This document shows positions 11,810-55,266 of a stretch of DNA of 64,000 nt, in pieces. A program made the position numbers and the translations under genes. The notes beneath the pieces are model-generated. The model saw only the letters and a list, made by a program, of their open reading frames with translations, did not search any database and was not told the DNA's origin. Numbering within the stretch: the first letter of the stretch is position 1; each line of letters starts with the position of its first letter. Source of the stretch: a virus; the UHGV virus genome UHGV-0109738, one strand, 5' to 3'.

Positions 11810-11831
11810 TTTTGTGATCTGTGTTACACTT
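11810..11831. promoter_or_regulatory. CRP-consensus-like site TGTGA-N6-TTACA in divergent intergenic region
   Basis: cattTTGTGAtctgtgTTACAc; 19 of 22 nt shared with site at 19160-19181. Confidence 0.35.
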
Positions 11832-18439: not shown

Positions 18440-19144
18440 TCAACCCACCTTGCTTGATCCTGGGAAACATGAAATTGGTAACGGATTCGGGCGCGGAAAA
18501 CGCAAACGGCAACCGCTTAGGCGGTGGCTGCATTTATCCAGCTTTGGATCGCTTGTCGATTCGTCTTTGTCAGTAGCTACAGGGCCGCCACTATATCCGC
18601 AACCGTCGCCGCGATATTGCCACTGGCAAACGTCAGCGAGGATTGTGCGCCCAGGGATAACCGCTTTATCAGCATCAATTGGCGTTGACAGTTCATATTG
18701 CACCTGGTCCGCTGTTTCTTCGCTCATCGCTTCAACGACGTAAAAAGACACAGCCTCAATAGATGGATCTGCATCTGGATTGCCGTTGGGGAAGTTAACG
18801 GCGTCCAGGTATTTTACTTCCACCTGGCGGCGAGTAACCTTCATTCCTCGCAGGTCGTTGAAATCGTTATTCATCCCGGTGATTAGCCCGCCAATGTTGG
18901 CTACTACCATTTGGGGGCGTGAGTAAACGCCTTCGTTTTTCATTTCGAAGCCAGTTGCCTCGATCGGGTAGCTGTTGTAAGCCAAGCCCTTCCAGATAAC
19001 CTGGCCGTAATAGCCATTCGCGCCGGAATGGAAGCGGATAACCTCGCCACCCAGGGGCGTAAGGTCCAGCTCAAATAAGTCAATGACCGCGCCGACTCCG
19101 GCATCGACGGAATCAATAATCATCTCTCTCGGAATATTGCGCAT
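18440..19144 (-). CDS. L: minor tail protein L
   Basis: Aligns with lambda L throughout (e.g. YLDAVNFPNGN, CQWQYRGDGCGYSG, DKCSHRLSGC). Confidence 0.9.
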   Translation of the reverse strand: MRNIPREMIIDSVDAGVGAVIDLFELDLTPLGGEVIRFHSGANGYYGQVIWKGLAYNSYPIEATGFEMKNEGVYSRPQMVVANIGGLITGMNNDFNDLRGMKVTRRQVEVKYLDAVNFPNGNPDADPSIEAVSFYVVEAMSEETADQVQYELSTPIDADKAVIPGRTILADVCQWQYRGDGCGYSGGPVATDKDESTSDPKLDKCSHRLSGCRLRFPRPNPLPISCFPGSSKVG

Positions 19145-19159
19145 TTTCTCACCTTGTCA

Positions 19160-19181
19160 TTTTGTGATCTGCGTCACGCTA
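19160..19181. promoter_or_regulatory. CRP-consensus-like site TGTGA-N6-TCACG in divergent intergenic region
   Basis: cattTTGTGAtctgcgTCACGc; homologous to 11810-11831. Confidence 0.35.
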
Positions 19182-19235
19182 AATCATACCAAAATGGATT
19201 GATCGAGGTTTTTACAATATGTATATTTTACTCAA

Positions 19236-19442
19236 ATGAAGGGGAAGTTAACAAAATGGCACAAAGGGCGCGGGATGAACGATAAACTATGGAGACTGAC
19301 CTTATTTGTGAGTAATGGGCGTGATATCGAGGCTGAATTCGATAACCCTAGCGACGCCTTAGAAACGTCCATTTACCTATCAGAAAAAGATGATCGCGTC
19401 CTGGGCTACCGGATTAAACCGATTAAAAGCGGGGATCAGTAA
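19236..19442 (+). CDS. hypothetical moron protein
   Basis: ORF track; opposite strand to tail genes; start uncertain (internal ATG at 19275). Confidence 0.35.
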   Translation: MKGKLTKWHKGRGMNDKLWRLTLFVSNGRDIEAEFDNPSDALETSIYLSEKDDRVLGYRIKPIKSGDQ

Positions 19443-19443
19443 A

Positions 19444-19794
19444 ATGCAAAAATACCGTCTAGATGTATGGATGGCAGGCAGTAAAGATTGGGAAGGTTAC
19501 GGATTATATGACAGTTACGAAATGGCAGTCGAGGAAGGAGAAAAACTTGTTCGCTTCTTCGGGCGCGCCAGGGAATTCAAAATAACTCAGGTACAAATAG
19601 ATGAGAAGGTGGAAGATATGAACCCGAAAGATATTAACTTTAACGTCAATGTTAATTTTGCTGACTCTATGGATCAGTCTTGCCCTGGTGAAATACACGC
19701 AAAGGGTTTCCCGGCTGATGATCCTGATGCAAAACGCGAATACGAAAAAGCGGCAAAAGATTTCTGTATCGACAATTTAAGTTGCTTTGATTAA
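19444..19794 (+). CDS. hypothetical moron protein (116 aa)
   Basis: ORF track; start reassigned to ATG overlapping upstream stop. Confidence 0.45.
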   Translation: MQKYRLDVWMAGSKDWEGYGLYDSYEMAVEEGEKLVRFFGRAREFKITQVQIDEKVEDMNPKDINFNVNVNFADSMDQSCPGEIHAKGFPADDPDAKREYEKAAKDFCIDNLSCFD

Positions 19795-19799
19795 AAATT

Positions 19800-20285
19800 A
19801 TGAAATGGTACAACATCTTTACTTATAATGAAGGGAAATTATTCTGGAAGATACCAACAAGCGGTAGAATTACCAACGGCAAGGAAGCCGGAAGTTTGCA
19901 CAACGGGTATATTGTTATCTGTGTGCAAAATAAAAAGTATAAGGCACACAACATAATTTGGGAAATGCACAACGGCCCGATCCCAGAAGGGTATGTGATT
20001 GACCATATAAACCATATAAGGAGTGATAACAGAATATAAAATCTAAGAATGATAACAAAACAAGAAAACATGAAAAATATGCCGTTATCCAGAAGGAATA
20101 AGAGCGGGTGCATTGGCGTATGGTGGAATGAAGCGAATAAAAAATGGATTGTAAGAGTGATGATTAGTGGGGTGTATCGGCATATAGGGTGTTTTAATAG
20201 CTACCTTGATGCGTGTAACGCCTCAAAAGAAGCGCACGAAATCGGAGGGTACTATAAAGAACATGGCGCGGCGCAATCACAGTGA
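19800..20285 (+). pseudogene. HNH homing endonuclease with AP2-type DNA-binding domain, interrupted by a single in-frame TAA
   Basis: Two track ORFs (19800-20039, 20049-20285) are in the same frame separated by TAA at 20037-20039; motifs HNGYIVI..AHNIIWE..IDHINHIRSDNRI then NLR..QENMKNM and AP2-like SGCIGVWWNEANKKWIVRV. Confidence 0.7.
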
Positions 20286-20511
20286 TTATGTATACACGTT
20301 GAAACAGGCCGCCCGCCTTATCGGTTATCATGAACACGAATTTATTGATTTGCTGATTGAGCGCGGGATACTGTACCAGGTCTGCTTAACGCTGTACCCT
20401 AAAGCGAAATACCTACAGGAAAAGTTATTTATCATCATGACGGATGAAAACCAGGTTAATCACTCATTCGTCACTGATAAGGGATTGACATATTTGAAGG
20501 GGGCGTTATGA
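20263..20511 (+). CDS. hypothetical protein (82 aa), possible HTH
   Basis: ORF track; internal ATG chosen; overlaps 3' end of HNH ORF in another frame. Confidence 0.35.
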   Translation: MARRNHSDYVYTLKQAARLIGYHEHEFIDLLIERGILYQVCLTLYPKAKYLQEKLFIIMTDENQVNHSFVTDKGLTYLKGAL

Positions 20512-20806: not shown

Positions 20807-21160
20807 CTAATTAATAACTTGCTCAAATGTTGCATTTAGCGTGTATAGCGGACCGTCTTTAGTCATGCTCCAGCTACGGCAAACAAAAAGCCTTTGCACG
20901 TTATCCATCGACGGCGACCAGTAAAAAGCCTCGACAGCGCCACGCGCCCTCAAGAATGCTTCCGCCTGGATCGCTACATTCCCACCATCGCCGCATCCTG
21001 CACTACTGCCTTTAAAAACCAGGGTGTAACTATCAAGTAATGTGTTAATCCCTTTCGCCTGGCGTTGTTCATACCCATCACCAAGTTTAATGACAGATAC
21101 GTTTGGTTCCCTGGTCACGCTGTAGCTTCTTTGCGGCGTCCATCTGAACACTTCCGGCAT
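20807..21160 (-). CDS. M: minor tail protein M
   Basis: N-terminal FRWTP..GDGYEQR and C-terminal NATFEQVIN match lambda M (FRWKV..GDGYSQR; EFSAEFEQVVN). Confidence 0.85.
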   Translation of the reverse strand: MPEVFRWTPQRSYSVTREPNVSVIKLGDGYEQRQAKGINTLLDSYTLVFKGSSAGCGDGGNVAIQAEAFLRARGAVEAFYWSPSMDNVQRLFVCRSWSMTKDGPLYTLNATFEQVIN

Positions 21161-21192: not shown

Positions 21193-21216
21193 TTTACGCG
21201 CTTCTACGCGAAAAAT
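21193..21216. promoter_or_regulatory. conserved motif TTTACGCG-N4-TACGCGAAAAAT (copy A) upstream of M
   Basis: tttacgcgcttctacgcgaaaaat; second copy at 33325-33348. Confidence 0.4.
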
Positions 21217-21327
21217 GAGATCTTTGTCACAATGATTATAGCTAGTTTACAAAATGGCTTCACGTAGCATGCAACAAGATGTATATAGAAAGCAAGAAGA
21301 AAGCAGTACCAACGAAGGAGGCCCAAA

Positions 21328-24420: not shown

Positions 24421-24723
24421 GATTTAACCTCATGCAAAATGTGATCTATGCATCTATTTTATACAAAATGTCTTTATTTTAACGATACCGTTTTGTATAG
24501 ATGATGTAGAGAAAGATAGAAGAGATGCAGGAAGGCCGGATGTCCCGGAGGAAGTGAAAGAGGATAAGAAAATGAGAAACGTAAACTACCGTCCCAACGA
24601 ATATGAACGCTATGCGGACCTTATCGAAGAAATGTTAAAAGCACTTAAAAAATAAACAATATGCGTGTATAACTAAGTTAAAGGAAGCATTTAGCAAATC
24701 AGAATAATTACAGGGGGTTGATT

Positions 24724-38280: not shown

Positions 38281-38300
38281 AGATTTTCCTCCAACAAAGC

Positions 38301-38322
38301 AAAAACCCGGCGCGGGGCCGGG
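38301..38322 (-). terminator. rho-independent terminator immediately upstream of holin (tR'-like position)
   Basis: Minus-strand cccggc-cccgc-gccggg followed by TTTTT. Confidence 0.6.
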
Positions 38323-38387
38323 TAGTTATAGTTTCGCATTGTTAGAGAATATTTTAATCTGTTTGTTTACGACCTACAAATACGGCG

Positions 38388-38564
38388 TTACGGCTTTCTA
38401 TATATCAGGCCATTATCAAGCAATGTTTGCATATGCCACCGATCCATGTCGCTTAATTCCCAATAAGGAACATCATCAGGTCTTATCATCACCGATTCAC
38501 CTCTAACCAAATAGGCGATGTTAAATACCTTATGTAAATAGATGCCATCTTCGATCTCGTTCAT
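38388..38564 (-). CDS. small hypothetical protein (58 aa), paralog of 38561-38740
   Basis: Manual translation; N-terminus MNEIEDGIY; start overlaps upstream stop (ATGA). Confidence 0.4.
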   Translation of the reverse strand: MNEIEDGIYLHKVFNIAYLVRGESVMIRPDDVPYWELSDMDRWHMQTLLDNGLIYRKP

Positions 38565-38740
38565 AGGTCGCTAACCTTAAACAGTATGCCTTTATCAACG
38601 CCACGCTTAATGTCTTCCCTTGTTGTTTTGAAGAACGGCTCATATTCCCCACCATCGAAGCTGATTGTTACAGTATCGCCGCCCACTATGTAAAAAACGT
38701 TCTCCATCAGGTTTACACCATAGATACCGTCTTCAATCAT
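38561..38740 (-). CDS. small hypothetical protein (59 aa), paralog of 38388-38564
   Basis: Manual translation; N-terminus MIEDGIYGV; ATGA overlaps at both ends. Confidence 0.4.
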   Translation of the reverse strand: MIEDGIYGVNLMENVFYIVGGDTVTISFDGGEYEPFFKTTREDIKRGVDKGILFKVSDL

Positions 38741-38931
38741 TTCTTGCGCTCCTTAATAGCTCGCTTGATCTGCACTACCGTAGCATCGAAGAAAGCGAGA
38801 AACATCACTACAGGCCATAAAGGAATCTCAAGGCCACCACGATCGAGATCGTTATATTTGATGAAACAAGACATCAGGATAGCGCCAGCGATATAAAGGA
38901 GAAATACAGCAAAGATAAGACATTCAATCAT
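38737..38931 (-). CDS. small membrane protein (64 aa)
   Basis: ORF track; hydrophobic N-terminal half. Confidence 0.45.
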   Translation of the reverse strand: MIECLIFAVFLLYIAGAILMSCFIKYNDLDRGGLEIPLWPVVMFLAFFDATVVQIKRAIKERKK

Positions 38932-39064
38932 CCTCTTTCTCCCCGCCTAAATGTTGATATATTTTTTCAGCATTTTCCCCGCGCTCAAAACAATAATGCT
39001 CAAACATGCGCCAGTGTTCACTAAGAAACATAACAATAAACTTGTTTACGTATTCGTCATCCAT
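38924..39064 (-). CDS. small hypothetical protein (46 aa)
   Basis: Manual translation; start 3 nt after upstream stop. Confidence 0.35.
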   Translation of the reverse strand: MDDEYVNKFIVMFLSEHWRMFEHYCFERGENAEKIYQHLGGEKEDD

Positions 39065-39066
39065 CG

Positions 39067-39378
39067 TTAATCATCCTCTTCATCGTCTTCTTGTTCAGCT
39101 AGGAAATCATCGACAGAACAGTAAGTAACTGGCGGGATATATTCGAAGTCATCCGTATCAAGATCGAGCGTCCTGCTGTCGCCGTCGTCGTCAATCGTAT
39201 TCATTCCTAACTCACCGAAAGGGCCGTACCCAATGTGGCCCAGGTATTCGCAACCAATCGCAAACCCAGGGTATTCGCCTTTACACCGGATTTTGTAAAG
39301 TTTATTTGATGCGCTCAATTTCCGACCCTCCACTTTCTGCTTCAGTGATTTTGTATTCTGCCGCCAGTTCAGCGCCAA
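39067..39378 (-). CDS. hypothetical acidic protein (start uncertain)
   Basis: ORF track; acidic C-terminal tail EQEDDEEDD; N-terminal region ambiguous between frames. Confidence 0.3.
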   Translation of the reverse strand: MALNWRQNTKSLKQKVEGRKLSASNKLYKIRCKGEYPGFAIGCEYLGHIGYGPFGELGMNTIDDDGDSRTLDLDTDDFEYIPPVTYCSVDDFLAEQEDDEEDD

Positions 39379-39628
39379 GCAATTCCACTTCCATATTAGC
39401 GATACCCTGGAACATCAGATAGGCAAAAACTAGGCTTTTAATTCTATCCGGGTCTTCAAGATGGTCTGCATTAAAAGGCGGTTCCGATACGTGGAAGCAT
39501 TTAACATGCGCATCGTCTTCAGTGGCTACACGGAAACATGCGCCAGGTTACCCGGCGAATTCCCCCAATCTTTCTTCGTTCGGTAAAGTACCACGGAAAA
39601 CTTTAACGCTGATAAATTTAGTCATTGT

Positions 39629-39910
39629 TTATTCTCCTTCGTAAAGAGTTGCCACCAGTTCGGCATCTGTTAGCGTGTTATAATCTGTATAAAACCCGCA
39701 ACGCATAAGTGAAGAAAGGCCAGCCACTTTGCACCACATAGGGGTCGATTCGCTCAAATATTCATTCTCCCTTTTTTCGCTGTATTCCAGTTCATAAAAC
39801 CGACTATTGTTAACACCCTCAATTACACGGCTGTATGTGCCATCAAGCCTACTAACTCCGCGCCATAGTCTGATCACAACCATAATTTCTACTCCGTTTG
39901 ATGGGGCCAT
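39629..39910 (-). CDS. hypothetical protein (93 aa)
   Basis: ORF track; start lies within a GGGGCC/GGCCCC hairpin. Confidence 0.4.
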   Translation of the reverse strand: MAPSNGVEIMVVIRLWRGVSRLDGTYSRVIEGVNNSRFYELEYSEKRENEYLSESTPMWCKVAGLSSLMRCGFYTDYNTLTDAELVATLYEGE

Positions 39911-39922
39911 TCGGCCCCGTGT

Positions 39923-40063
39923 TTATTCTTCTTCTCCTCCTCTAAATCCTAAGCACTCCGCGTATTCGTCAATGCTTAATGCTTCTTCACCTGGTGCCAA
40001 TACTTCAAAGTAGCGGGCGTATAGTTCGAAAACCCAGGCCGGATATTTAGCGTTAGCGTTCAT
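39923..40063 (-). CDS. small hypothetical protein (46 aa)
   Basis: Manual translation; AAGGGG SD. Confidence 0.35.
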   Translation of the reverse strand: MNANAKYPAWVFELYARYFEVLAPGEEALSIDEYAECLGFRGGEEE

Positions 40064-40072
40064 GGTTCCCCC

Positions 40073-40351
40073 TTATGCCATGCGTGCAAATTCAAGTGAT
40101 TTGCATTCGTAGTCTTCCTCTGCCTGTTCGATGACTGCCATCATCATTTCGTTTGCGTTGTTGAATGCGTTGCTTTGTGCGAACTTGTCGGCTCCACCTT
40201 CTTCTTCGAACTCCGCGTTGTTTGCTGCAATGTAGTGATATTCGATGTTGTTCAGGTAAGGGCTTGCAGCGTGTGCTGGGTCTTCTTTCTCCACCATCTC
40301 CCAAAATGCGTTTAAGCGAGATTCGACTTCTTTGTTAATCCAGCGTTTCAT
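40073..40351 (-). CDS. hypothetical acidic protein (92 aa)
   Basis: ORF track. Confidence 0.45.
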   Translation of the reverse strand: MKRWINKEVESRLNAFWEMVEKEDPAHAASPYLNNIEYHYIAANNAEFEEEGGADKFAQSNAFNNANEMMMAVIEQAEEDYECKSLEFARMA

Positions 40352-40429
40352 TTTTCTACCCTCCGCATCGTTCTCTCTTCAGCTTCTTTATAACAAAATG
40401 GCACTGCCGAAACAATGCCATTTCGTAAA

Positions 40430-40451
40430 CCTTGTGATACAGATCACATTT
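40430..40451. promoter_or_regulatory. perfect CRP-consensus site TGTGA-N6-TCACA
   Basis: ccttgTGTGAtacagaTCACAttt in the only sizeable intergenic gap (40352-40449) of the late small-gene block; adjacent 8-bp inverted repeat aaatggca/tgccattt. Confidence 0.45.
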
Positions 40452-40674
40452 ACGTTTCTTCCGTAAAAGTAACCTTCATCGCCCCATCCGAACTACGGAC
40501 AACATAACGACCAATACCGCCTAGCGGCCCTGCATACCATAAGTGACCGTAAGTGTCAGTTACGACGATAAACGGAAATTTAGGAGACAATCCCATCGGT
40601 TTTTCAGCCGTATACTGTGCGCCTTCTTCAAAACAGCCTAATTTCGATTCGTTACACGTTAAAATCATTTTCAT
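40450..40674 (-). CDS. small protein, paralog family A member 1 (74 aa)
   Basis: Shares F-x-x-G-x-x-Y ... TD-x-x-G-x-LW pattern with three adjacent genes. Confidence 0.5.
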   Translation of the reverse strand: MKMILTCNESKLGCFEEGAQYTAEKPMGLSPKFPFIVVTDTYGHLWYAGPLGGIGRYVVRSSDGAMKVTFTEET

Positions 40675-44120: not shown

Positions 44121-44310
44121 CCTTCACCTCGCGACGATAGATTTCTACTGGCTTAACCGGAATAGCGTTAAAATCACCTTCATCCAGTGCGGCAATAAAC
44201 GTTAGCGCCAACCGTGCTTCAACACCGCTTAAATACTTGCACCATGCCTCACCGTTATAATCTTTAAAAAGAATAATCACTTTTTTCATGTTTATCTCTT
44301 GTTGTTTCAT
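44110..44310 (-). CDS. hypothetical protein (66 aa)
   Basis: ORF track; begins right at Q stop, leaving no room for a lambda-like pR' gap. Confidence 0.4.
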   Translation of the reverse strand: MKQQEINMKKVIILFKDYNGEAWCKYLSGVEARLALTFIAALDEGDFNAIPVKPVEIYRREVKDEA

Positions 44311-45032
44311 TATTCACCCCGTGTCACTCGTTTAATTTCGTTATCAGCCCGCGCCTCTTCTTTGAACAATTCAGTAATGGCGTCTTCATAGAAAGCACGG
44401 TATTTCTTCCACCACGTTGATCGGCTTACCGGAAATACAAGCTGATTAACCGCACGCCGGACAAGATCTACAGGGAAACGCGAGTACCCGCGCCCGCCGC
44501 AATGCTGGCACGTTTTGAACGCTGGCATTTCCGCTGCTTCACTGGCTGCTTTATCCGGTATCTCGCCGCGCCCTTTGCATCGTTTACAATGATTGCGAAC
44601 TTTTCCATGCCCCTTGCATTTTTTGCAAAGGTGTTTTTCTCCGTAGTCGTCAAACGTAAATTTATATCCGCCGCAATCCATACAAGTTTTTTCTGTCGCG
44701 GCACTCTGGCAGTAATCCCGAAACGCGAAAACGGCAACAAGAATAATAAGATCATTGCGTTTGTCCTCGTCCAACTCCATGACGTATTCGTAATCTTTTG
44801 CCATAGCTCTTAAACGCTCTGTAAGCAAAACTACGGCCCTGTGTTTTTCGGCTTGCGATAATTCCATCTTCCCTAAAAAAGCGCTATAACCAAGCTCTAC
44901 GCGCGATTGCGCCATACCTGCTGCGGTTAGTGCATCAGTAGTATTAAGCGAGTCTGGGGACGTGCCCCGGCTTTCATCTGACAAACGCGGTGATTTTGGG
45001 AGGTGGAATTTAAGAATAGATTCCAAATTCAT
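44310..45032 (-). CDS. Q: late antitermination protein Q (lambda type)
   Basis: N-terminus MNLESILKFHLPKSPRLSDESRGTSPDSL..AAGMAQS aligns with lambda Q; Cys-rich zinc-binding region. Confidence 0.85.
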   Translation of the reverse strand: MNLESILKFHLPKSPRLSDESRGTSPDSLNTTDALTAAGMAQSRVELGYSAFLGKMELSQAEKHRAVVLLTERLRAMAKDYEYVMELDEDKRNDLIILVAVFAFRDYCQSAATEKTCMDCGGYKFTFDDYGEKHLCKKCKGHGKVRNHCKRCKGRGEIPDKAASEAAEMPAFKTCQHCGGRGYSRFPVDLVRRAVNQLVFPVSRSTWWKKYRAFYEDAITELFKEEARADNEIKRVTRGE

Positions 45033-46411: not shown

Positions 46412-46519
46412 AATGCTCCCTCCCTTTAAGGTGATTTCTACGCATTTCAGCGCTGCCGGATTTTTAAAGAGCATTTCGTTTGCTTGAAGTATACAAAATG
46501 GATACGCCAGAACAAGGTG

Positions 46520-46561
46520 AATGGCGCCATTATGTGATCCACATCACGCAATGGCGCCATT
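46520..46561. promoter_or_regulatory. twin 12-bp perfect palindromes AATGGCGCCATT flanking a CRP-like TGTGA-N6-TCACG
   Basis: aatggcgccatt at 46520 and 46550, 30 bp apart; centre atgTGTGAtccacaTCACGc. Confidence 0.45.
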
Positions 46562-50096: not shown

Positions 50097-50138
50097 TTAC
50101 AATACAAAATGTATATTTATGTGATCGGAATTACTCGG

Positions 50139-53375: not shown

Positions 53376-53524
53376 CCTTTAATCTCCTTCGCTGTTAACA
53401 CTATGTATAAGGCTTTATTCGCGGCGCTCCACATTTCGGCATCATGAAGCATTTCCGCTACCGCCAGTTTGAATTGAAGCGCCAGAATAACCATAATGTT
53501 ACCCCCGAATGTTTACATTTTGTA

Positions 53525-53779
53525 TTAATGGTAGCGGACTTTATCCAGGGGTTTTTCCCCTAAATGGCGTGGTTGCGTTGCGTGGTAGTAGTTGCCGCTT
53601 TCATTTTCCGTATACCATTTCACTGATCCTTTGCGACGTTCTTTAATGCTATTTGGTTTGCATCTTTCCTCGTTTGCAAATCGAATAGCTTTATCCACAT
53701 TGTCTGTTTTATTGATTGCAGGTGATGATTTTCTTTCGTTTTCTCTTTTTATCCTTCTGCGTTCTCTGGCATTCATTTT
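53525..53779 (-). CDS. N-like transcription antiterminator (arginine-rich motif)
   Basis: N-terminal ARM MNARERRRIKRENERK; first gene leftward of cI, downstream of nutL-like element. Confidence 0.55.
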   Translation of the reverse strand, partial: KMNARERRRIKRENERKSSPAINKTDNVDKAIRFANEERCKPNSIKERRKGSVKWYTENESGNYYHATQPRHLGEKPLDKVRYH

Positions 53780-53859
53780 GCTATCACATTTGCCATATAT
53801 AATTGTAACGCTCATAATCTGATCTCCGTATATCCTTGATGAAAATTAATAAAAATCAT

Positions 53860-53897: not shown

Positions 53898-54314
53898 GTT
53901 AATGAGCGGCTTAACATCTTTCAACTAATCCCGCAATCATCGCCGTTCCCGGCGTGACCTTGCTCACTCCAAGCAAGCTGACTCGTCGCCTTGCGTGCGG
54001 TTTCGTGGGGGATGTAACGCTTTAAACACCCCATGCGCCTTGTTATCAGTGCCGCTTTCGGTCCCCCATCGGGGAGTTACTCCACGGTTGACAAGGTGTT
54101 AAGCCTGATTTTTAAAGTGCCAGGAAGTTGCTTTTGTTACCTGCGACCTTCCTTTGACTCGCAATATACGCCCCGTAAAACATCGAGTCAATCCATTTTG
54201 TATACTTTTTTAAAATATTTTATATGCTATTGATATTTAAACAATAAATAACGTTTTCTGTTTACGTTTTGGCGTTTTTAAGGCAAAGAAAAGCCGCCAT
54301 CCGGCGGCTAATGT

Positions 54315-54962
54315 TTATGGCAGGTTTACGATCTTCGCATCAACCACCACGCCTATAATTTTCGATTCTGGATTCATAGGGATTGGCGGATACAGCGGAT
54401 TGAGCGAACGTAAAAGCCTTTGACCTCCATCAATAATCAACTGTTTAAACGTCGGTATCTGCCCTTCCTCAAGCTGGGCTATAACCAGTTTGCCGTCAAT
54501 AGCTGGCGCGTGCGGGTCCACAAGTATCATCGTCCCCGCCGGGATGCTCAACCCCTGCGGCGCGTTCATTGATTCACCTTTGGCAACCAGCCAGTAACTG
54601 TCATCTGAACAAATAACGCTAGTCGTAACGTGTCGTAATGCTGAACGCCTTGCGTCATCCATATTGTTTACTGTGTCCTTCCAGTCAATAACCGGGTAAC
54701 TACCTAAATCACGCGGCGGCACGGCCTGAAGTGTATTAGAAACAGAATCATCAATGACCATGCCATCATGTGTAACAGTAAACTGCCGACGACCAAGCTC
54801 GCGCATAATCCGCGCAATATCTTCAAGATTTGGCTCTCGGCGACCGTTCAGCCAGTGTGACAGGCCGCCTTTAGTTATCCCCATACGATCCGCGAGTGAA
54901 TCCTGGCTCATGCCCTGCGCCCGCATGAGCTGCTTTGCTAAGTCATACCATTTTGTTTTCAT
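54315..54962 (-). CDS. CI-type prophage repressor (HTH plus S24 LexA-like peptidase domain)
   Basis: N-terminal HTH (MSQDSLADRMGITKGGLSHWLNGRR); C-terminal S24 motifs (AKGESM..; K in QLIID). Confidence 0.85.
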   Translation of the reverse strand: MKTKWYDLAKQLMRAQGMSQDSLADRMGITKGGLSHWLNGRREPNLEDIARIMRELGRRQFTVTHDGMVIDDSVSNTLQAVPPRDLGSYPVIDWKDTVNNMDDARRSALRHVTTSVICSDDSYWLVAKGESMNAPQGLSIPAGTMILVDPHAPAIDGKLVIAQLEEGQIPTFKQLIIDGGQRLLRSLNPLYPPIPMNPESKIIGVVVDAKIVNLP

Positions 54963-55266
54963 GTCGCTACCCTATAACCTCAAAAAGTTTGATGCAAGTC
55001 ACAAAACGTGTATTTTAAGCCTTGATCTTAAAATTCCATTTTGTAAACTTGCAGACAAGGTAAGGCCATACTTGCAAAGACGCAAGGAAAAAGATACGGA
55101 AGGCACAAAAAGGCACTTACCTTATGCTCTTTAAAAATCCGGTGTCGCTGCGAAGCGAAAAACAAATATCACGCAACGGCGGGATCTGTTGAGCGGTCAG
55201 TCACTGCTATCTAATGCTAATGGGATGCCCGCCCGCGCGTTCACTCTAACCATAGGAGAAAATGCG

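What the first reader, a model, noticed from the sequence alone, without database searches (positions are those of the whole stretch)
40352..40451. Perfect CRP consensus site and a second palindrome in the only intergenic gap of the late small-gene block
The 98-bp gap contains ccttgTGTGAtacagaTCACAttt, a perfect TGTGA-N6-TCACA with A/T flanks, next to an 8-bp inverted repeat aaatggca-N12-tgccattt. A perfect 16-bp match is unlikely by chance in 64 kb. It may mark a host-regulated internal promoter driving the downstream small genes and lysis cassette independently of Q.
Basis: partly seen in the sequence, partly recalled or inferred. Interest (0 to 1): 0.55.

Follow-up and report, generated by a model that had tools for sequence, protein, structure and literature searches.

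The report
CRP-type promoter/terminator cassette in a prophage
The gap holds a conserved regulatory cassette of a gut E. coli phage family: a near-ideal binding site for the host sugar-starvation regulator CRP, placed where it could switch on a weak promoter, overlapping an RNA hairpin that looks like a transcription stop signal; it probably controls a few small accessory genes, not cell lysis.

Summary
TGTGATCTGTATCACA (40448-40433, minus strand) is the only perfect CRP core in the window (0.05 expected by chance).

The window is a prophage of the mEp021-like (mEpimmI) group, and the genes here run on the minus strand. The gap is a portable ~110-bp cassette. I found 42 copies (25 distinct) lying between at least six different upstream and four different downstream genes, with no insertions or deletions in the 76-nt core.

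Seventeen bp downstream of the dyad lie TTGTTT, 17 bp, then TGtTATAAA. That puts the dyad near -60.5, a class I CRP activation position. The same dyad-to-promoter geometry recurs at three other promoter-like regions of this phage, two of them directly upstream of nut boxA sequences.

The palindrome arms are inverted copies of a phage-wide 10-mer, TACAAAATGG. As RNA they form a 15-bp hairpin followed by UUUUGUU, annotated as a predicted terminator in phage mEp044.

The block is not late. It lies between the Q gene and a PR'-like promoter plus strong terminator in front of the holin, so Q-independent lysis is not supported. CRP binding and the transcription start are untested.

The parts
40430..40451 (-). 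22-bp CRP-type site AAATGTGATCTGTATCACAAGG. The core dyad TGTGA-N6-TCACA is at 40448-40433. The site starts inside the TAA stop codon (40452-40450) of the upstream ORF.
   Evidence: In 25 distinct family copies G5, T6, G7, A8, C18 and A20 are invariant, while the spacer and right half vary.
40418..40427 (-). Upstream copy of the dispersed motif (TACGAAATGG). It forms the 5' arm of the hairpin and ends 2 nt before the -35-like hexamer.
   Evidence: The major early promoter PR has the same placement: TACAAAATGG-A-TTGACT.
40410..40415 (-). -35-like hexamer TTGTTT, 17 bp downstream of the dyad. It lies in the apical part of the hairpin, overlapping the loop.
   Evidence: Columns 37-41 (TTGTT) are invariant in alignment A1.
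40387..40395 (-). Extended -10-like element TGtTATAAA. The hexamer TATAAA is at 40392-40387, 17 bp from the -35-like hexamer. It lacks the usual T at -7.
   Evidence: TTTTGTTA plus A63 and A65 are invariant in 25 variants. The consensus scan did not flag it, because that scan requires a T at hexamer position 6.
40392..40401 (+). Second, inverted copy of the dispersed motif (AACAAAATGG on the plus strand, CCATTTTGTT on the sense strand). It forms the 3' arm of the hairpin and overlaps the spacer and -10.
40393..40426 (-). Sense-strand RNA hairpin: 15 pairs with a 4-nt loop (40411-40408). The core 9-bp stem is worth -11.9 kcal/mol. It is followed by, and partly includes, UUUUGUU (40398-40392). 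This makes it look like an intrinsic terminator.
   Evidence: All pair cells are standard pairs in all 25 variants, and four pairs vary on one side only through G.U. The homologous site is annotated as 'Rho-independent terminator predicted by ARNold; T7' in mEp044.
40349..40364 (-). Shine-Dalgarno sequence GGAGGG (40364-40359) and ATG (40351-40349) of the first downstream gene. The inferred transcription start is near 40380.
   Evidence: The start site is inferred from the position of the -10 only.
38388..40351 (-). The small accessory genes that a start in the gap would serve. ORFs: 40073-40351, 39923-40063, 39629-39883, 39067-39378, 38924-39064, 38737-38931, 38561-38740, 38388-38564.
   Evidence: All match PHROGs of unknown function; none matches a Pfam family above the cutoff.
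38300..38379 (-). PR'-like promoter (TTGTAG 38379-38374, 17 bp, TAAAAT 38356-38351) followed by the strong hairpin ACCCGGCCCCGCGCCGGGT (38323-38305) and TTTTTG. It lies directly upstream of the holin ATG (38280) and would be the downstream boundary of the unit.
   Evidence: It is conserved in mEp021, where the hairpin is annotated TERM_5.
46488..46548 (-). Paralogous module upstream of the nutR2-type boxA: dyad CGTGATGTGGATCACA (46548-46533), 17 bp, TTGTTC, 16 bp, TATACT (46493-46488), then ATGCTCTTTAAAAA about 13 nt later.
54988..55049 (+). Paralogous module for the leftward operon (PL-like): dyad TTTGATGCAAGTCACA (54988-55003), 18 bp, TTGATC, 16 bp, TAAACT (55044-55049). A boxA sequence follows about 75 nt downstream. 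The same dyad lies just downstream of a candidate cI promoter on the opposite strand.
19163..19227 (+). Paralogous module in front of a reverse-oriented accessory cassette between minor tail genes: dyad TGTGATCTGCGTCACG (19163-19178), 20 bp, TTGATC, 17 bp, TATATT (19222-19227).

Best explanation
The gap is one copy of a portable ~110-bp regulatory cassette of mEp021-like (mEpimmI) temperate coliphages. It combines a stop signal and a restart signal.

Stop signal. RNA arriving from the upstream early operon folds into a 15-bp hairpin followed by UUUUGUU. This is an intrinsic terminator. Polymerase modified by the phage's N-like antiterminator would read through it; polymerase without that modification would stop there.

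Restart signal. The same DNA carries a weak sigma-70 promoter: -35 TTGTTT, a 17-bp spacer, and an extended -10 TGtTATAAA. The promoter has a near-consensus CRP site exactly 17 bp upstream of its -35, so the site centre is at about -60.5 (range -60 to -62). That is the class I position, from which cAMP-CRP recruits RNA polymerase through the alpha C-terminal domain.

Transcripts started there would cover the eight small accessory genes downstream and end at the strong terminator in front of the holin.

Shown here: the sequence features, their conservation, their fixed spacing, and the recurrence of the same dyad-to-promoter geometry at three other promoter-like regions of the phage.

Inferred: that host CRP is the protein that binds, that transcription starts near 40380, and that the hairpin terminates.
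For: - The site has a perfect 10-nt core and an 11/11 left half-site. It is the only such site in 64 kb, against 0.05 expected.
- The cassette occurs in 42 copies (25 distinct) from phages, IMG/VR and metagenomes. It lies between at least 6 unrelated upstream and at least 4 different downstream genes, with no indel in the 76-nt core. It is found only in this phage group: once each in 32 of 5426 E. coli genomes and in 4 phage records.
- Within the site, the CRP-contacted bases G5, G7, A8 and C18 are invariant, while spacer positions 12-14 are among the most variable columns. Seven different spacers occur with intact TGTGA/TCACA.
- CRP-like dyads are enriched in the window: 7 at one mismatch or fewer versus 2.0 expected, reached by 1 of 100 shuffles. 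Six of the seven lie in intergenic gaps.
- Four of these dyads have TTGNNN 17-20 bp away and TAnAn[T/A] a further 16-17 bp on, in the direction of real genes. The background frequency of that pattern is 0.0012 per position, so about 0.016 were expected.
- At the module upstream of nutR2, 15 variants keep GTGAT/TCACA, TTGT and TATACT, while the 4 central bases and the linkers vary without length change.
- At the PL-like module, six variants keep the dyad, TTGA and TAAACT, while the linker sequences diverge and change length by at most 1 nt. mEp044 keeps its dyads at the homologous positions.
- The hairpin is -19.9 kcal/mol with z = -6.7. It is 100% paired in 25 variants, and its substitutions are tolerated only as G.U pairs on the sense strand. 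The antisense fold is weaker, at -11.2 kcal/mol. mEp044 annotates it as a predicted terminator.
- There is a precedent for cAMP-CRP acting directly on phage promoters: the pir, dam and recE promoters of T1 (PMC6737242).
Against: - There is no experimental evidence for CRP binding, a transcription start or termination.
- The -10 candidate lacks the highly conserved T at -7 (TATAAA here, TATATA in relatives). The consensus scan reported neither a promoter nor a terminator in the gap.
- The inferred centre of -60.5 is 1 bp off the classical -61.5. The paralogous modules give -59.5 (upstream of nutR2 and PL-like) and -62.5 (the 19.2-kb module).
- In about half of the distinct family variants the right half-site is yCGCA or CAGCA (2-4 core mismatches). 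Strong CRP binding is therefore not universally preserved.
- The promoter-geometry test used a pattern defined after seeing the sites.
- The hairpin shows no double compensatory change. Its arm substitutions also match the degeneracy of the dispersed motif, so a DNA-level constraint explains them equally well.
- In many relatives the opposite strand of the left arm reads CCATTTTGTA(A/T)ACT. That string matches the -10 regions of the PL-like promoter and of the promoter upstream of nutR2. The direction of the promoter is therefore not settled.
Confidence: 0.45

Rival explanations
1. The dyad and the TACAAAATGG motif are operators for phage-encoded DNA-binding proteins, such as the CI-like Rep, an unrecognised Cro-like factor or another early protein. 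Host CRP is not involved. On this view the cassette is one of several dispersed operator sets that keep secondary promoters silent in the lysogen or time them during infection. Comparable cases are the dispersed C1 operators of P1 and the stoperators of mycobacteriophage L5 (both recalled from memory).
For: - TACAAAATGG occurs 24 times at one mismatch or fewer, against 7.0 +/- 2.5 expected; 0 of 100 shuffles reach 24. Seven copies are exact. Most lie in intergenic gaps, often as inverted pairs next to the dyads, and copies flank cI and PR.
- Several dyads sit immediately downstream of -10-like hexamers on the other strand, including the one before cI. That is a repressor-type position.
- A second copy of the same layout (AAATGTGATCT...TACAAAATGT-N16-CCGTTTTGTATAG) lies at 24440-24500.
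- In about half of the cassette variants the right half is not TCACA but a separately conserved yCGCAAAG.
Against: - The ten early-region proteins scanned gave no CRP/FNR-family match above the Pfam cutoff.
- The dyads match the CRP consensus beyond the core (AAATGTGATCT).
- A position near -60 is an activator position, not a repressor position, for the four same-strand promoters.
- PR and the PL-like promoter share a different conserved block just downstream of their -10 hexamers (TTGCGAGTCAAAGGAAGG and CTTGCAGACAAGGTAAGG). That block is a more natural Rep operator candidate (my own reading of the sequences).
Confidence: 0.25
2. The gap is only an intrinsic terminator and a mosaic joint. On this view the hairpin attenuates read-through in the early operon, and the conserved flanks persist because homologous recombination between phages uses the cassette as a linker. 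The CRP-like dyad would have no regulatory role.
For: - The hairpin plus U-tract is predicted as a terminator.
- Recombinant copies combine different upstream genes, dyad right halves and downstream genes (L020, L030, L044, L051), which shows crossovers within the cassette.
- mEp021, mEp013 and mEp515 lack the cassette altogether, so it is dispensable.
- The -10 candidate is weak.
Against: - A linker role does not explain why half-site bases stay fixed while the bases between them vary.
- It does not explain why sequence downstream of the U-tract (TATAnA) is invariant.
- It does not explain why the same dyad-17/20-TTGnnn-16/17-TAnAnT arrangement recurs at three other places that share little other sequence.
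Confidence: 0.2
3. The dyad acts at the RNA level, as a small 3'-end hairpin (UGUGAU-CUGU-AUCACA) of the upstream message. Alternatively it is a chance palindrome.
For: A 6-bp stem with a 4-nt loop can form, at -4.6 kcal/mol. In the module upstream of nutR2 the dyad sits at the tip of a long hairpin.
Against: - The fold is weak; 8 of 200 shuffles fold at least as well.
- Family variants change the right arm to yCGCA without any compensating change on the left.
- Chance is excluded by the conservation and by the enrichment of such dyads.
Confidence: 0.05

Closest known systems
Class I CRP-dependent promoters of E. coli (lac P1 type; CRP site near -62)
   Same: A 22-bp two-fold symmetric TGTGA-N6-TCACA site lies one helical-phase-appropriate distance (about -60.5) upstream of a weak sigma-70 promoter. 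An A-rich stretch sits between the site and the -35, where the alpha C-terminal domain would bind.
   Different: The core match is better than in almost all natural sites. The -10 lacks the T at -7. The DNA between the site and the -10 doubles as a terminator-type hairpin and as two copies of a phage-specific motif. Neither the transcription start nor CRP dependence has been measured.
Internal terminators of lambdoid early operons read through by N (lambda nin-region tR2-tR4; from textbook knowledge)
   Same: A hairpin plus U-tract lies inside a long early operon of a phage that uses an N-like antiterminator (Gp17) with nut sites, one of which (nutR2) is upstream of this point.
   Different: Here the terminator lies downstream of the Q gene rather than upstream of it. 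It also overlaps a promoter-like element and a CRP-type site.
cAMP-CRP control of phage T1 promoters (pir, dam, recE; PMC6737242)
   Same: Host CRP acts directly on promoters of a coliphage and links phage development to carbon status.
   Different: In T1, CRP represses, and this was shown experimentally. Here the geometry suggests activation, and nothing has been measured. The two phages are unrelated.
Moron-type accessory cassettes and boundary sequences of mosaic phage genomes (from general knowledge)
   Same: A short conserved non-coding element flanks exchangeable small genes of unknown function and offers its own promoter and terminator.
   Different: Here the conserved element itself moves between gene contexts. 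It also shares its design with the phage's core early promoter regions.

Membership tests
CRP (cAMP receptor protein) DNA site | A 22-bp two-fold symmetric site with core TGTGA-N6-TCACA and consensus half-site AAATGTGATCT. | tested here: met
   The site reads AAATGTGATCTGTATCACAAGG: 10/10 core, 11/11 left half, 17/22 overall. The consensus is taken from PMC1635313.
CRP (cAMP receptor protein) DNA site | Contacted bases (G5, G7, A8 and their symmetry mates) are preserved in relatives while uncontacted spacer bases drift. | tested here: inconclusive
   The left half is invariant in 25 variants, C18 is invariant and the spacer is variable. The right half, however, is TCACA-like in only about half of the variants; the rest have yCGCA or CAGCA. 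In the module upstream of nutR2 both halves are invariant in 15 variants.
CRP (cAMP receptor protein) DNA site | cAMP-dependent binding of CRP. | not testable with these tools
   This needs an EMSA, a footprint or ChIP.
Class I CRP-dependent promoter | The site is centred near -62, -72, -83 or -93 relative to a mapped transcription start. | tested here: inconclusive
   The centre is about -60.5 if the start lies 7 nt after TATAAA. No start site has been mapped. The paralogous modules give -59.5, -59.5 and -62.5.
Class I CRP-dependent promoter | A recognisable sigma-70 core promoter downstream of the site. | tested here: inconclusive
   TTGTTT-17-TGtTATAAA is present and conserved. It lacks the T at -7 and was not reported by the consensus scan.
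Intrinsic (Rho-independent) terminator | A stable stem-loop immediately followed by a U-rich tract on the transcribed strand. | tested here: met
   The core stem has 9 bp at -11.9 kcal/mol (15 bp at -19.9 kcal/mol including A:U pairs), followed by UUUUGUUAU. The fold is specific to the sense strand. ARNold predicts a terminator at the homologous site in mEp044. The simple scan did not list it.
Intrinsic (Rho-independent) terminator | Termination of transcription in vivo or in vitro. | not testable with these tools
   This needs a terminator-probe assay or 3'-end mapping.
Q-dependent late promoter (PR'/qut type) | A promoter closely followed by a terminator, lying at the head of the lysis and structural genes and downstream of the Q gene. 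| tested here: not met
   The gap is about 2.1 kb and eight genes upstream of the holin. An element that fits this description better lies at 38379-38300.
nut site (boxA + boxB) | A boxA sequence (GCTCTTTAA-like) followed by a boxB hairpin. | tested here: not met
   The window's only copies of the boxA string TGCTCTTTAA lie near 46474-46461 (minus strand) and 55124-55142 (plus strand). There is none in the gap.
Known structured RNA families (Rfam) | A match to a covariance model at the gathering score. | tested here: not met
   No hit reached the gathering score in the whole window. The gap gave only chance-level hits at E >= 0.25.

The most novel reading that the evidence does not exclude
Host cAMP-CRP may be wired into the core circuitry of this prevalent gut coliphage family through a set of dyads placed about 60 bp upstream of at least four promoters. 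These would be the leftward early/replication promoter, the promoter in front of nutR2, this cassette, and a reverse-oriented accessory cassette in the tail region. The dyad at the leftward promoter also sits just downstream of the candidate cI promoter. A single host protein could therefore lower repressor synthesis while activating lytic transcription. That would partly replace the Cro function, for which no gene lies between PR and the N-like gene. The accompanying dispersed 10-mer TACAAAATGG would be a second, still unassigned layer of control.
Probability: 0.25. Interest if true: 0.7.

Novelty: new member of a known kind. Interest (0 to 1): 0.5.

Why it matters
mEpimmI phages were described only recently. 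They are reported to be as common as lambdoid phages in a collection from human stool. Their published regulation covers only the repressor and the N-like antitermination system (PMC11893012). That paper defines no operators or promoters and does not mention CRP.

If the dyads are functional CRP sites, carbon status would feed directly into early transcription. Through the dyad between cI and the leftward promoter, it could also feed into the lysis-lysogeny switch of a widespread group of gut prophages.

The cassette in this gap is the cleanest test object: a perfect core, only 110 bp, and portable. On its own, however, it most likely controls only a handful of accessory genes of unknown function.

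Tried and rejected
- Rfam found nothing at gathering score in the whole window, and only chance-level hits in the gap.
- The consensus promoter/terminator scan reported nothing in the gap. The promoter and terminator calls therefore rest on relaxed criteria and on comparison with relatives.
- Pfam and PHROGs gave no function for the flanking or downstream small proteins.
- I looked for a phage-encoded CRP/FNR-like protein among ten early-region proteins. None was found. The hits were CI-like Rep, NinB, NinG, a zinc-finger/T5orf172-like protein and a replication-initiator-like protein.
- The 2023 paper on Gp17 antitermination in mEp021 is not in the library. I therefore could not check which terminators were tested experimentally.
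- Ideas considered by eye and dropped:
  - a sigma-54 promoter (TGGCAT-N5-CGGCA gives only a partial match and has no enhancer context);
  - a LexA box (no CTGT-N8-ACAG);
  - a 434-type ACAA-N6-TTGT operator (not consistent across motif copies);
  - IHF or Fis sites;
  - a class II CRP arrangement, or CRP acting on an antisense promoter inside the upstream gene (that sequence is not conserved).
- The hairpin encodes a possible 21-codon ORF (ATG at 40421). It is open in all variants, but it has no convincing ribosome-binding site and its frame relative to the next gene changes between variants. I treated it as unlikely.
- A 14-mer scan for the PL-like region was too unspecific: 120 mostly unrelated loci. 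Only six family variants could be used.

Full report
**What is in the sequence**

The window is a prophage of the mEp021-like, Nus-dependent, non-lambdoid 'mEpimmI' group. The region around the finding matches phages MagusPhagus, mEp044, mEp554 and mEp010 at 80-86% identity (group described in PMC11893012).

Genes around the finding run on the minus strand. The 98-bp gap 40352-40449 separates the TAA stop of ORF 40450..40674 from the ATG of ORF 40073..40351.

On the sense strand the gap reads: TAA-A-TGTGATCTGTATCACA-aggtt-TACGAAATGG-ca-TTGTTT-cggcagtg-CCATTTTGT-TATAAA-gaagctgaagagagaacgatgcGGAGGGtagaaaaATG.

The perfect TGTGA-N6-TCACA is unique in the window; 0.05 matches are expected by chance, and 4 of 100 shuffles contain one. 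With its flanks it matches the full left consensus half-site AAATGTGATCT. [quoted passage not shown]

The sense-strand RNA forms 15 consecutive pairs, including G.U pairs, with a 4-nt loop. Its energy is -19.9 kcal/mol (z = -6.7), against -11.2 kcal/mol for the other strand. The core 9-bp hairpin (-11.9 kcal/mol) is followed by UUUUGUUAU. The homologous site in mEp044 is annotated as an ARNold-predicted Rho-independent terminator, 'T7'.

**The gap is a conserved, portable cassette**

An exact-pattern scan for the hairpin found 25 IMG/VR contigs. A second pattern added metagenome contigs from the same family. Together with two phage records and the window, this gives 42 copies and 25 distinct 76-nt core sequences.

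The cassette lies between at least six unrelated upstream gene ends and at least four different downstream genes. Some copies (L020, L030, L044, L051) are recombinants that mix these contexts, so crossovers happen inside the cassette. No copy has an insertion or deletion in the 76-nt core, from the dyad to just beyond the TATA-like hexamer.

The cassette is confined to this phage group. It occurs once each in 32 of 5426 complete E. coli genomes and in four phage records. mEp021, mEp013 and mEp515 lack it. It matches no Rfam family.

**Conservation pattern**

In alignment A1 the column numbers coincide with CRP-site numbering.

- A2, G5, T6, G7 and A8 are invariant, and T9, C10 and T11 are nearly so. 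C18 and A20 are invariant.
- Positions 12-17 are among the most variable columns.
- Seven different spacers occur with intact half-sites.
- Of the 25 variants, 7 have a perfect core and 7 have one mismatch. Eleven have 2-4 mismatches, because their right half is TCGCA, CCGCA, ACGCA or CAGCA.
- Those right halves keep C16 (in all but the CAGCA variant), C18 and A19. TCGCA is the half-site of Sxy-dependent 'CRP-S' sites (PMC1635313). I treat that resemblance only as a lead.
- The hairpin is paired in 100% of cells in all 25 variants. Four pairs vary on one side only, always through G.U on the sense strand, and no pair shows a double compensatory change. This supports an RNA hairpin but does not prove one.
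- Sequence beyond the U-tract (T-A-t-A-n-A) is also conserved. A terminator alone does not need that.

**A promoter-like arrangement that recurs in the phage**

Seventeen bp after the dyad lies TTGTTT. Seventeen bp further on lies TATAAA, preceded by TGt (an extended -10). This puts the dyad centre near -60.5, close to the class I positions 'near -62'.

The window holds seven dyads with one core mismatch or fewer, against 2.0 expected; 1 of 100 shuffles reaches seven. Six of the seven lie in intergenic gaps.

Four of the seven show TTGNNN 17-20 bp away and TAnAn[T/A] after a further 16-17 bp, each pointing into genes on that strand. The pattern's background frequency is 0.0012 per position and direction, so about 0.016 were expected. 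The pattern was defined after inspection, which weakens this test.

Besides the one in this gap, the other three modules are:

1. CGTGATGTGGATCACA-17-TTGTTC-16-TATACT at 46548-46488 (minus strand). About 13 nt later comes ATGCTCTTTAAAAA, a boxA-type sequence at the place where the literature puts nutR2.
2. TTTGATGCAAGTCACA-18-TTGATC-16-TAAACT at 54988-55049 (plus strand), upstream of a second boxA and of the leftward operon.
3. TGTGATCTGCGTCACG-20-TTGATC-17-TATATT at 19163-19227 (plus strand), in front of a reverse-oriented cassette of unknown genes between minor tail genes.

Comparative data support modules 1 and 2 as real promoters. In 15 variants of module 1, GTGAT, TCACA, TTGT and GTATCCATTTTGTATACT are fixed, while the four central dyad bases and the linkers vary without length change. 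In six variants of module 2, the dyad, TTGA and TAAACT are fixed, while the linker and spacer sequences diverge. mEp044 keeps dyads at the homologous places.

The major rightward promoter (TTGACT-17-TATATT, 54191-54163) has an AT-rich upstream region and no dyad.

**The palindrome arms belong to a dispersed motif**

TACAAAATGG occurs 7 times exactly and 24 times with one mismatch or fewer. The expectation is 7.0 +/- 2.5, and no shuffle reaches 24. It is among the most over-represented 10-mers, and most copies lie in intergenic gaps.

The two arms of the gap hairpin are inverted copies of it, at 40427-40418 and 40392-40401. One orientation sits just upstream of -35 hexamers, as at PR, in the module at 19.2 kb and here. 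The other orientation forms the end of the spacer and the start of the -10, as in CCATTTTG-TAAACT, CCATTTTG-TATACT and here.

A second copy of the whole layout lies at 24440-24500. I cannot assign a binding protein to this motif. It may be a promoter-architecture element (an A-tract for the alpha C-terminal domain and a T-tract before the -10), or it may be an operator for a phage protein. The published description of the group defines no operators.

The block is not late. A Q-family antiterminator gene (PF03589) lies at 44310-45032 (annotated 'putative late gene regulator Q' in mEp021). It is followed by tightly packed small genes.

The gap is the only break of 30 nt or more between Q and 40073. 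After eight more small genes of unknown function comes a PR'-like promoter (TTGTAG-17-TAAAAT). About 30 nt later lies a GC-rich hairpin with TTTTTG, and then the holin. All of this is conserved in mEp021, where the hairpin is annotated TERM_5.

A transcript started in the gap would therefore end before the lysis genes, unless the polymerase had been made resistant to termination. 'Independently of Q' is not supported.

**Weighing the explanations**

I favour a combined terminator and CRP-type class I promoter cassette (confidence 0.45).

Its weak points are:
- the -10 without a T at -7;
- the degenerate right half-site in about half of the relatives;
- the post hoc nature of the geometry test;
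- the ambiguity of promoter direction, because in many relatives the antisense strand of the left arm matches the -10 regions of the PL-like promoter and of the promoter upstream of nutR2;
- above all, the absence of any binding or transcript data.

The main rival is that phage-encoded proteins use the dyad, the 10-mer, or both (0.25). A pure terminator and recombination-linker role (0.2) fails to explain the site-specific conservation and the recurring geometry. An RNA-level role for the dyad, or chance, is unlikely (0.05).

Direct action of cAMP-CRP on coliphage promoters has a precedent in phage T1, where it represses (PMC6737242).

**Verdict**

The cassette is a new, well-conserved example of known kinds of element: a CRP-type site, a class I-like promoter geometry and an intrinsic terminator. 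It sits in a recently described phage family.

The more interesting lead is phage-wide. CRP-type dyads lie about 60 bp upstream of several promoters, including the one next to the repressor gene, and they come with an unassigned dispersed motif.

Noticed in passing
window-wide; exact copies at 21248, 32108, 46492, 46557, 54193, 55036, 58819: The dispersed 10-mer TACAAAATGG occurs 24 times at one mismatch or fewer, against about 7 expected. Most copies lie in intergenic gaps, often as inverted pairs and next to CRP-like dyads. Its function is unknown and it is not described in the paper on this phage group.
   Followed up: partly
window 11813-11828, 19163-19178, 21216-21231, 46533-46548, 54988-55003 (also 24444-24459 and about 50120-50135, which have one good half-site): There is an excess of CRP-like dyads in intergenic regions of the prophage: 7 at one mismatch or fewer, against 2.0 expected. 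Several lie immediately downstream of -10-like hexamers on the opposite strand. One example is the dyad before cI, which lies 26-41 nt upstream of the cI ATG at 54962.
   Followed up: partly
window 38300-38379 (minus strand): A candidate Q-dependent late promoter: TTGTAG-17-TAAAAT, then about 30 nt later the hairpin ACCCGGCCCCGCGCCGGGT plus TTTTTG, directly upstream of the holin. It is conserved in mEp021. The Q-family gene lies about 6 kb upstream, not adjacent as in lambda.
   Followed up: partly
window 39901-39920 (minus strand); also L001 about 2395-2415, L002 about 2640-2660, L029 about 2033-2052: A conserved GC-rich hairpin (ACGGGGCCGAATGGCCCCAT) lies between accessory genes. No U-tract follows it on the sense strand. 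It recurs in mEp021, mEp044 and MagusPhagus in front of different genes. It may be an RNA processing or stability element, or another mosaic joint.
   Followed up: no
window about 46461-46474 (minus strand) and about 55124-55142 (plus strand): Two boxA-type sequences (ATGCTCTTTAAAAATCCGG), each preceded by one of the dyad-plus-promoter modules. This suggests that nutR2 and nutL each have their own promoter directly upstream.
   Followed up: partly
window 54145-54162 (minus strand) and 55046-55066 (plus strand): PR and the PL-like promoter share a similar block just after their -10 hexamers: TTGCGAGTCAAAGGAAGG and CTTGCAGACAAGGTAAGG. Non-window variants of the gap cassette carry AAGTCAAGGAAAG at the same relative position. 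This block is a candidate repressor operator or conserved leader.
   Followed up: no
window 53490-53524 (minus strand), 57681-57713 (plus strand), 58819-58850 (plus strand): Three genes have near-identical translation-initiation regions (TGTAAACA-[SD]-ATAACATnATG). These can pair around the Shine-Dalgarno sequence, which suggests a shared translational control.
   Followed up: no
window 19390-20511 (plus strand): A reverse-oriented cassette of ORFs of unknown function is inserted between minor tail protein genes (18440-19144 and 20807-21160). A CRP-like dyad bounds it on each side.
   Followed up: partly
window 53525-53815 (minus strand): The first gene after PR is the N-like Gp17 homologue, with the arginine-rich motif NARERRRIKRENERK. 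No Cro-like gene lies between PR and it.
   Followed up: no
window 39334-39628 (minus strand): A stretch of about 200-290 nt has no clean ORF; stops occur in the frame translated. mEp044 has a 107-aa gene at this place. This may be a decayed or mis-started gene.
   Followed up: no
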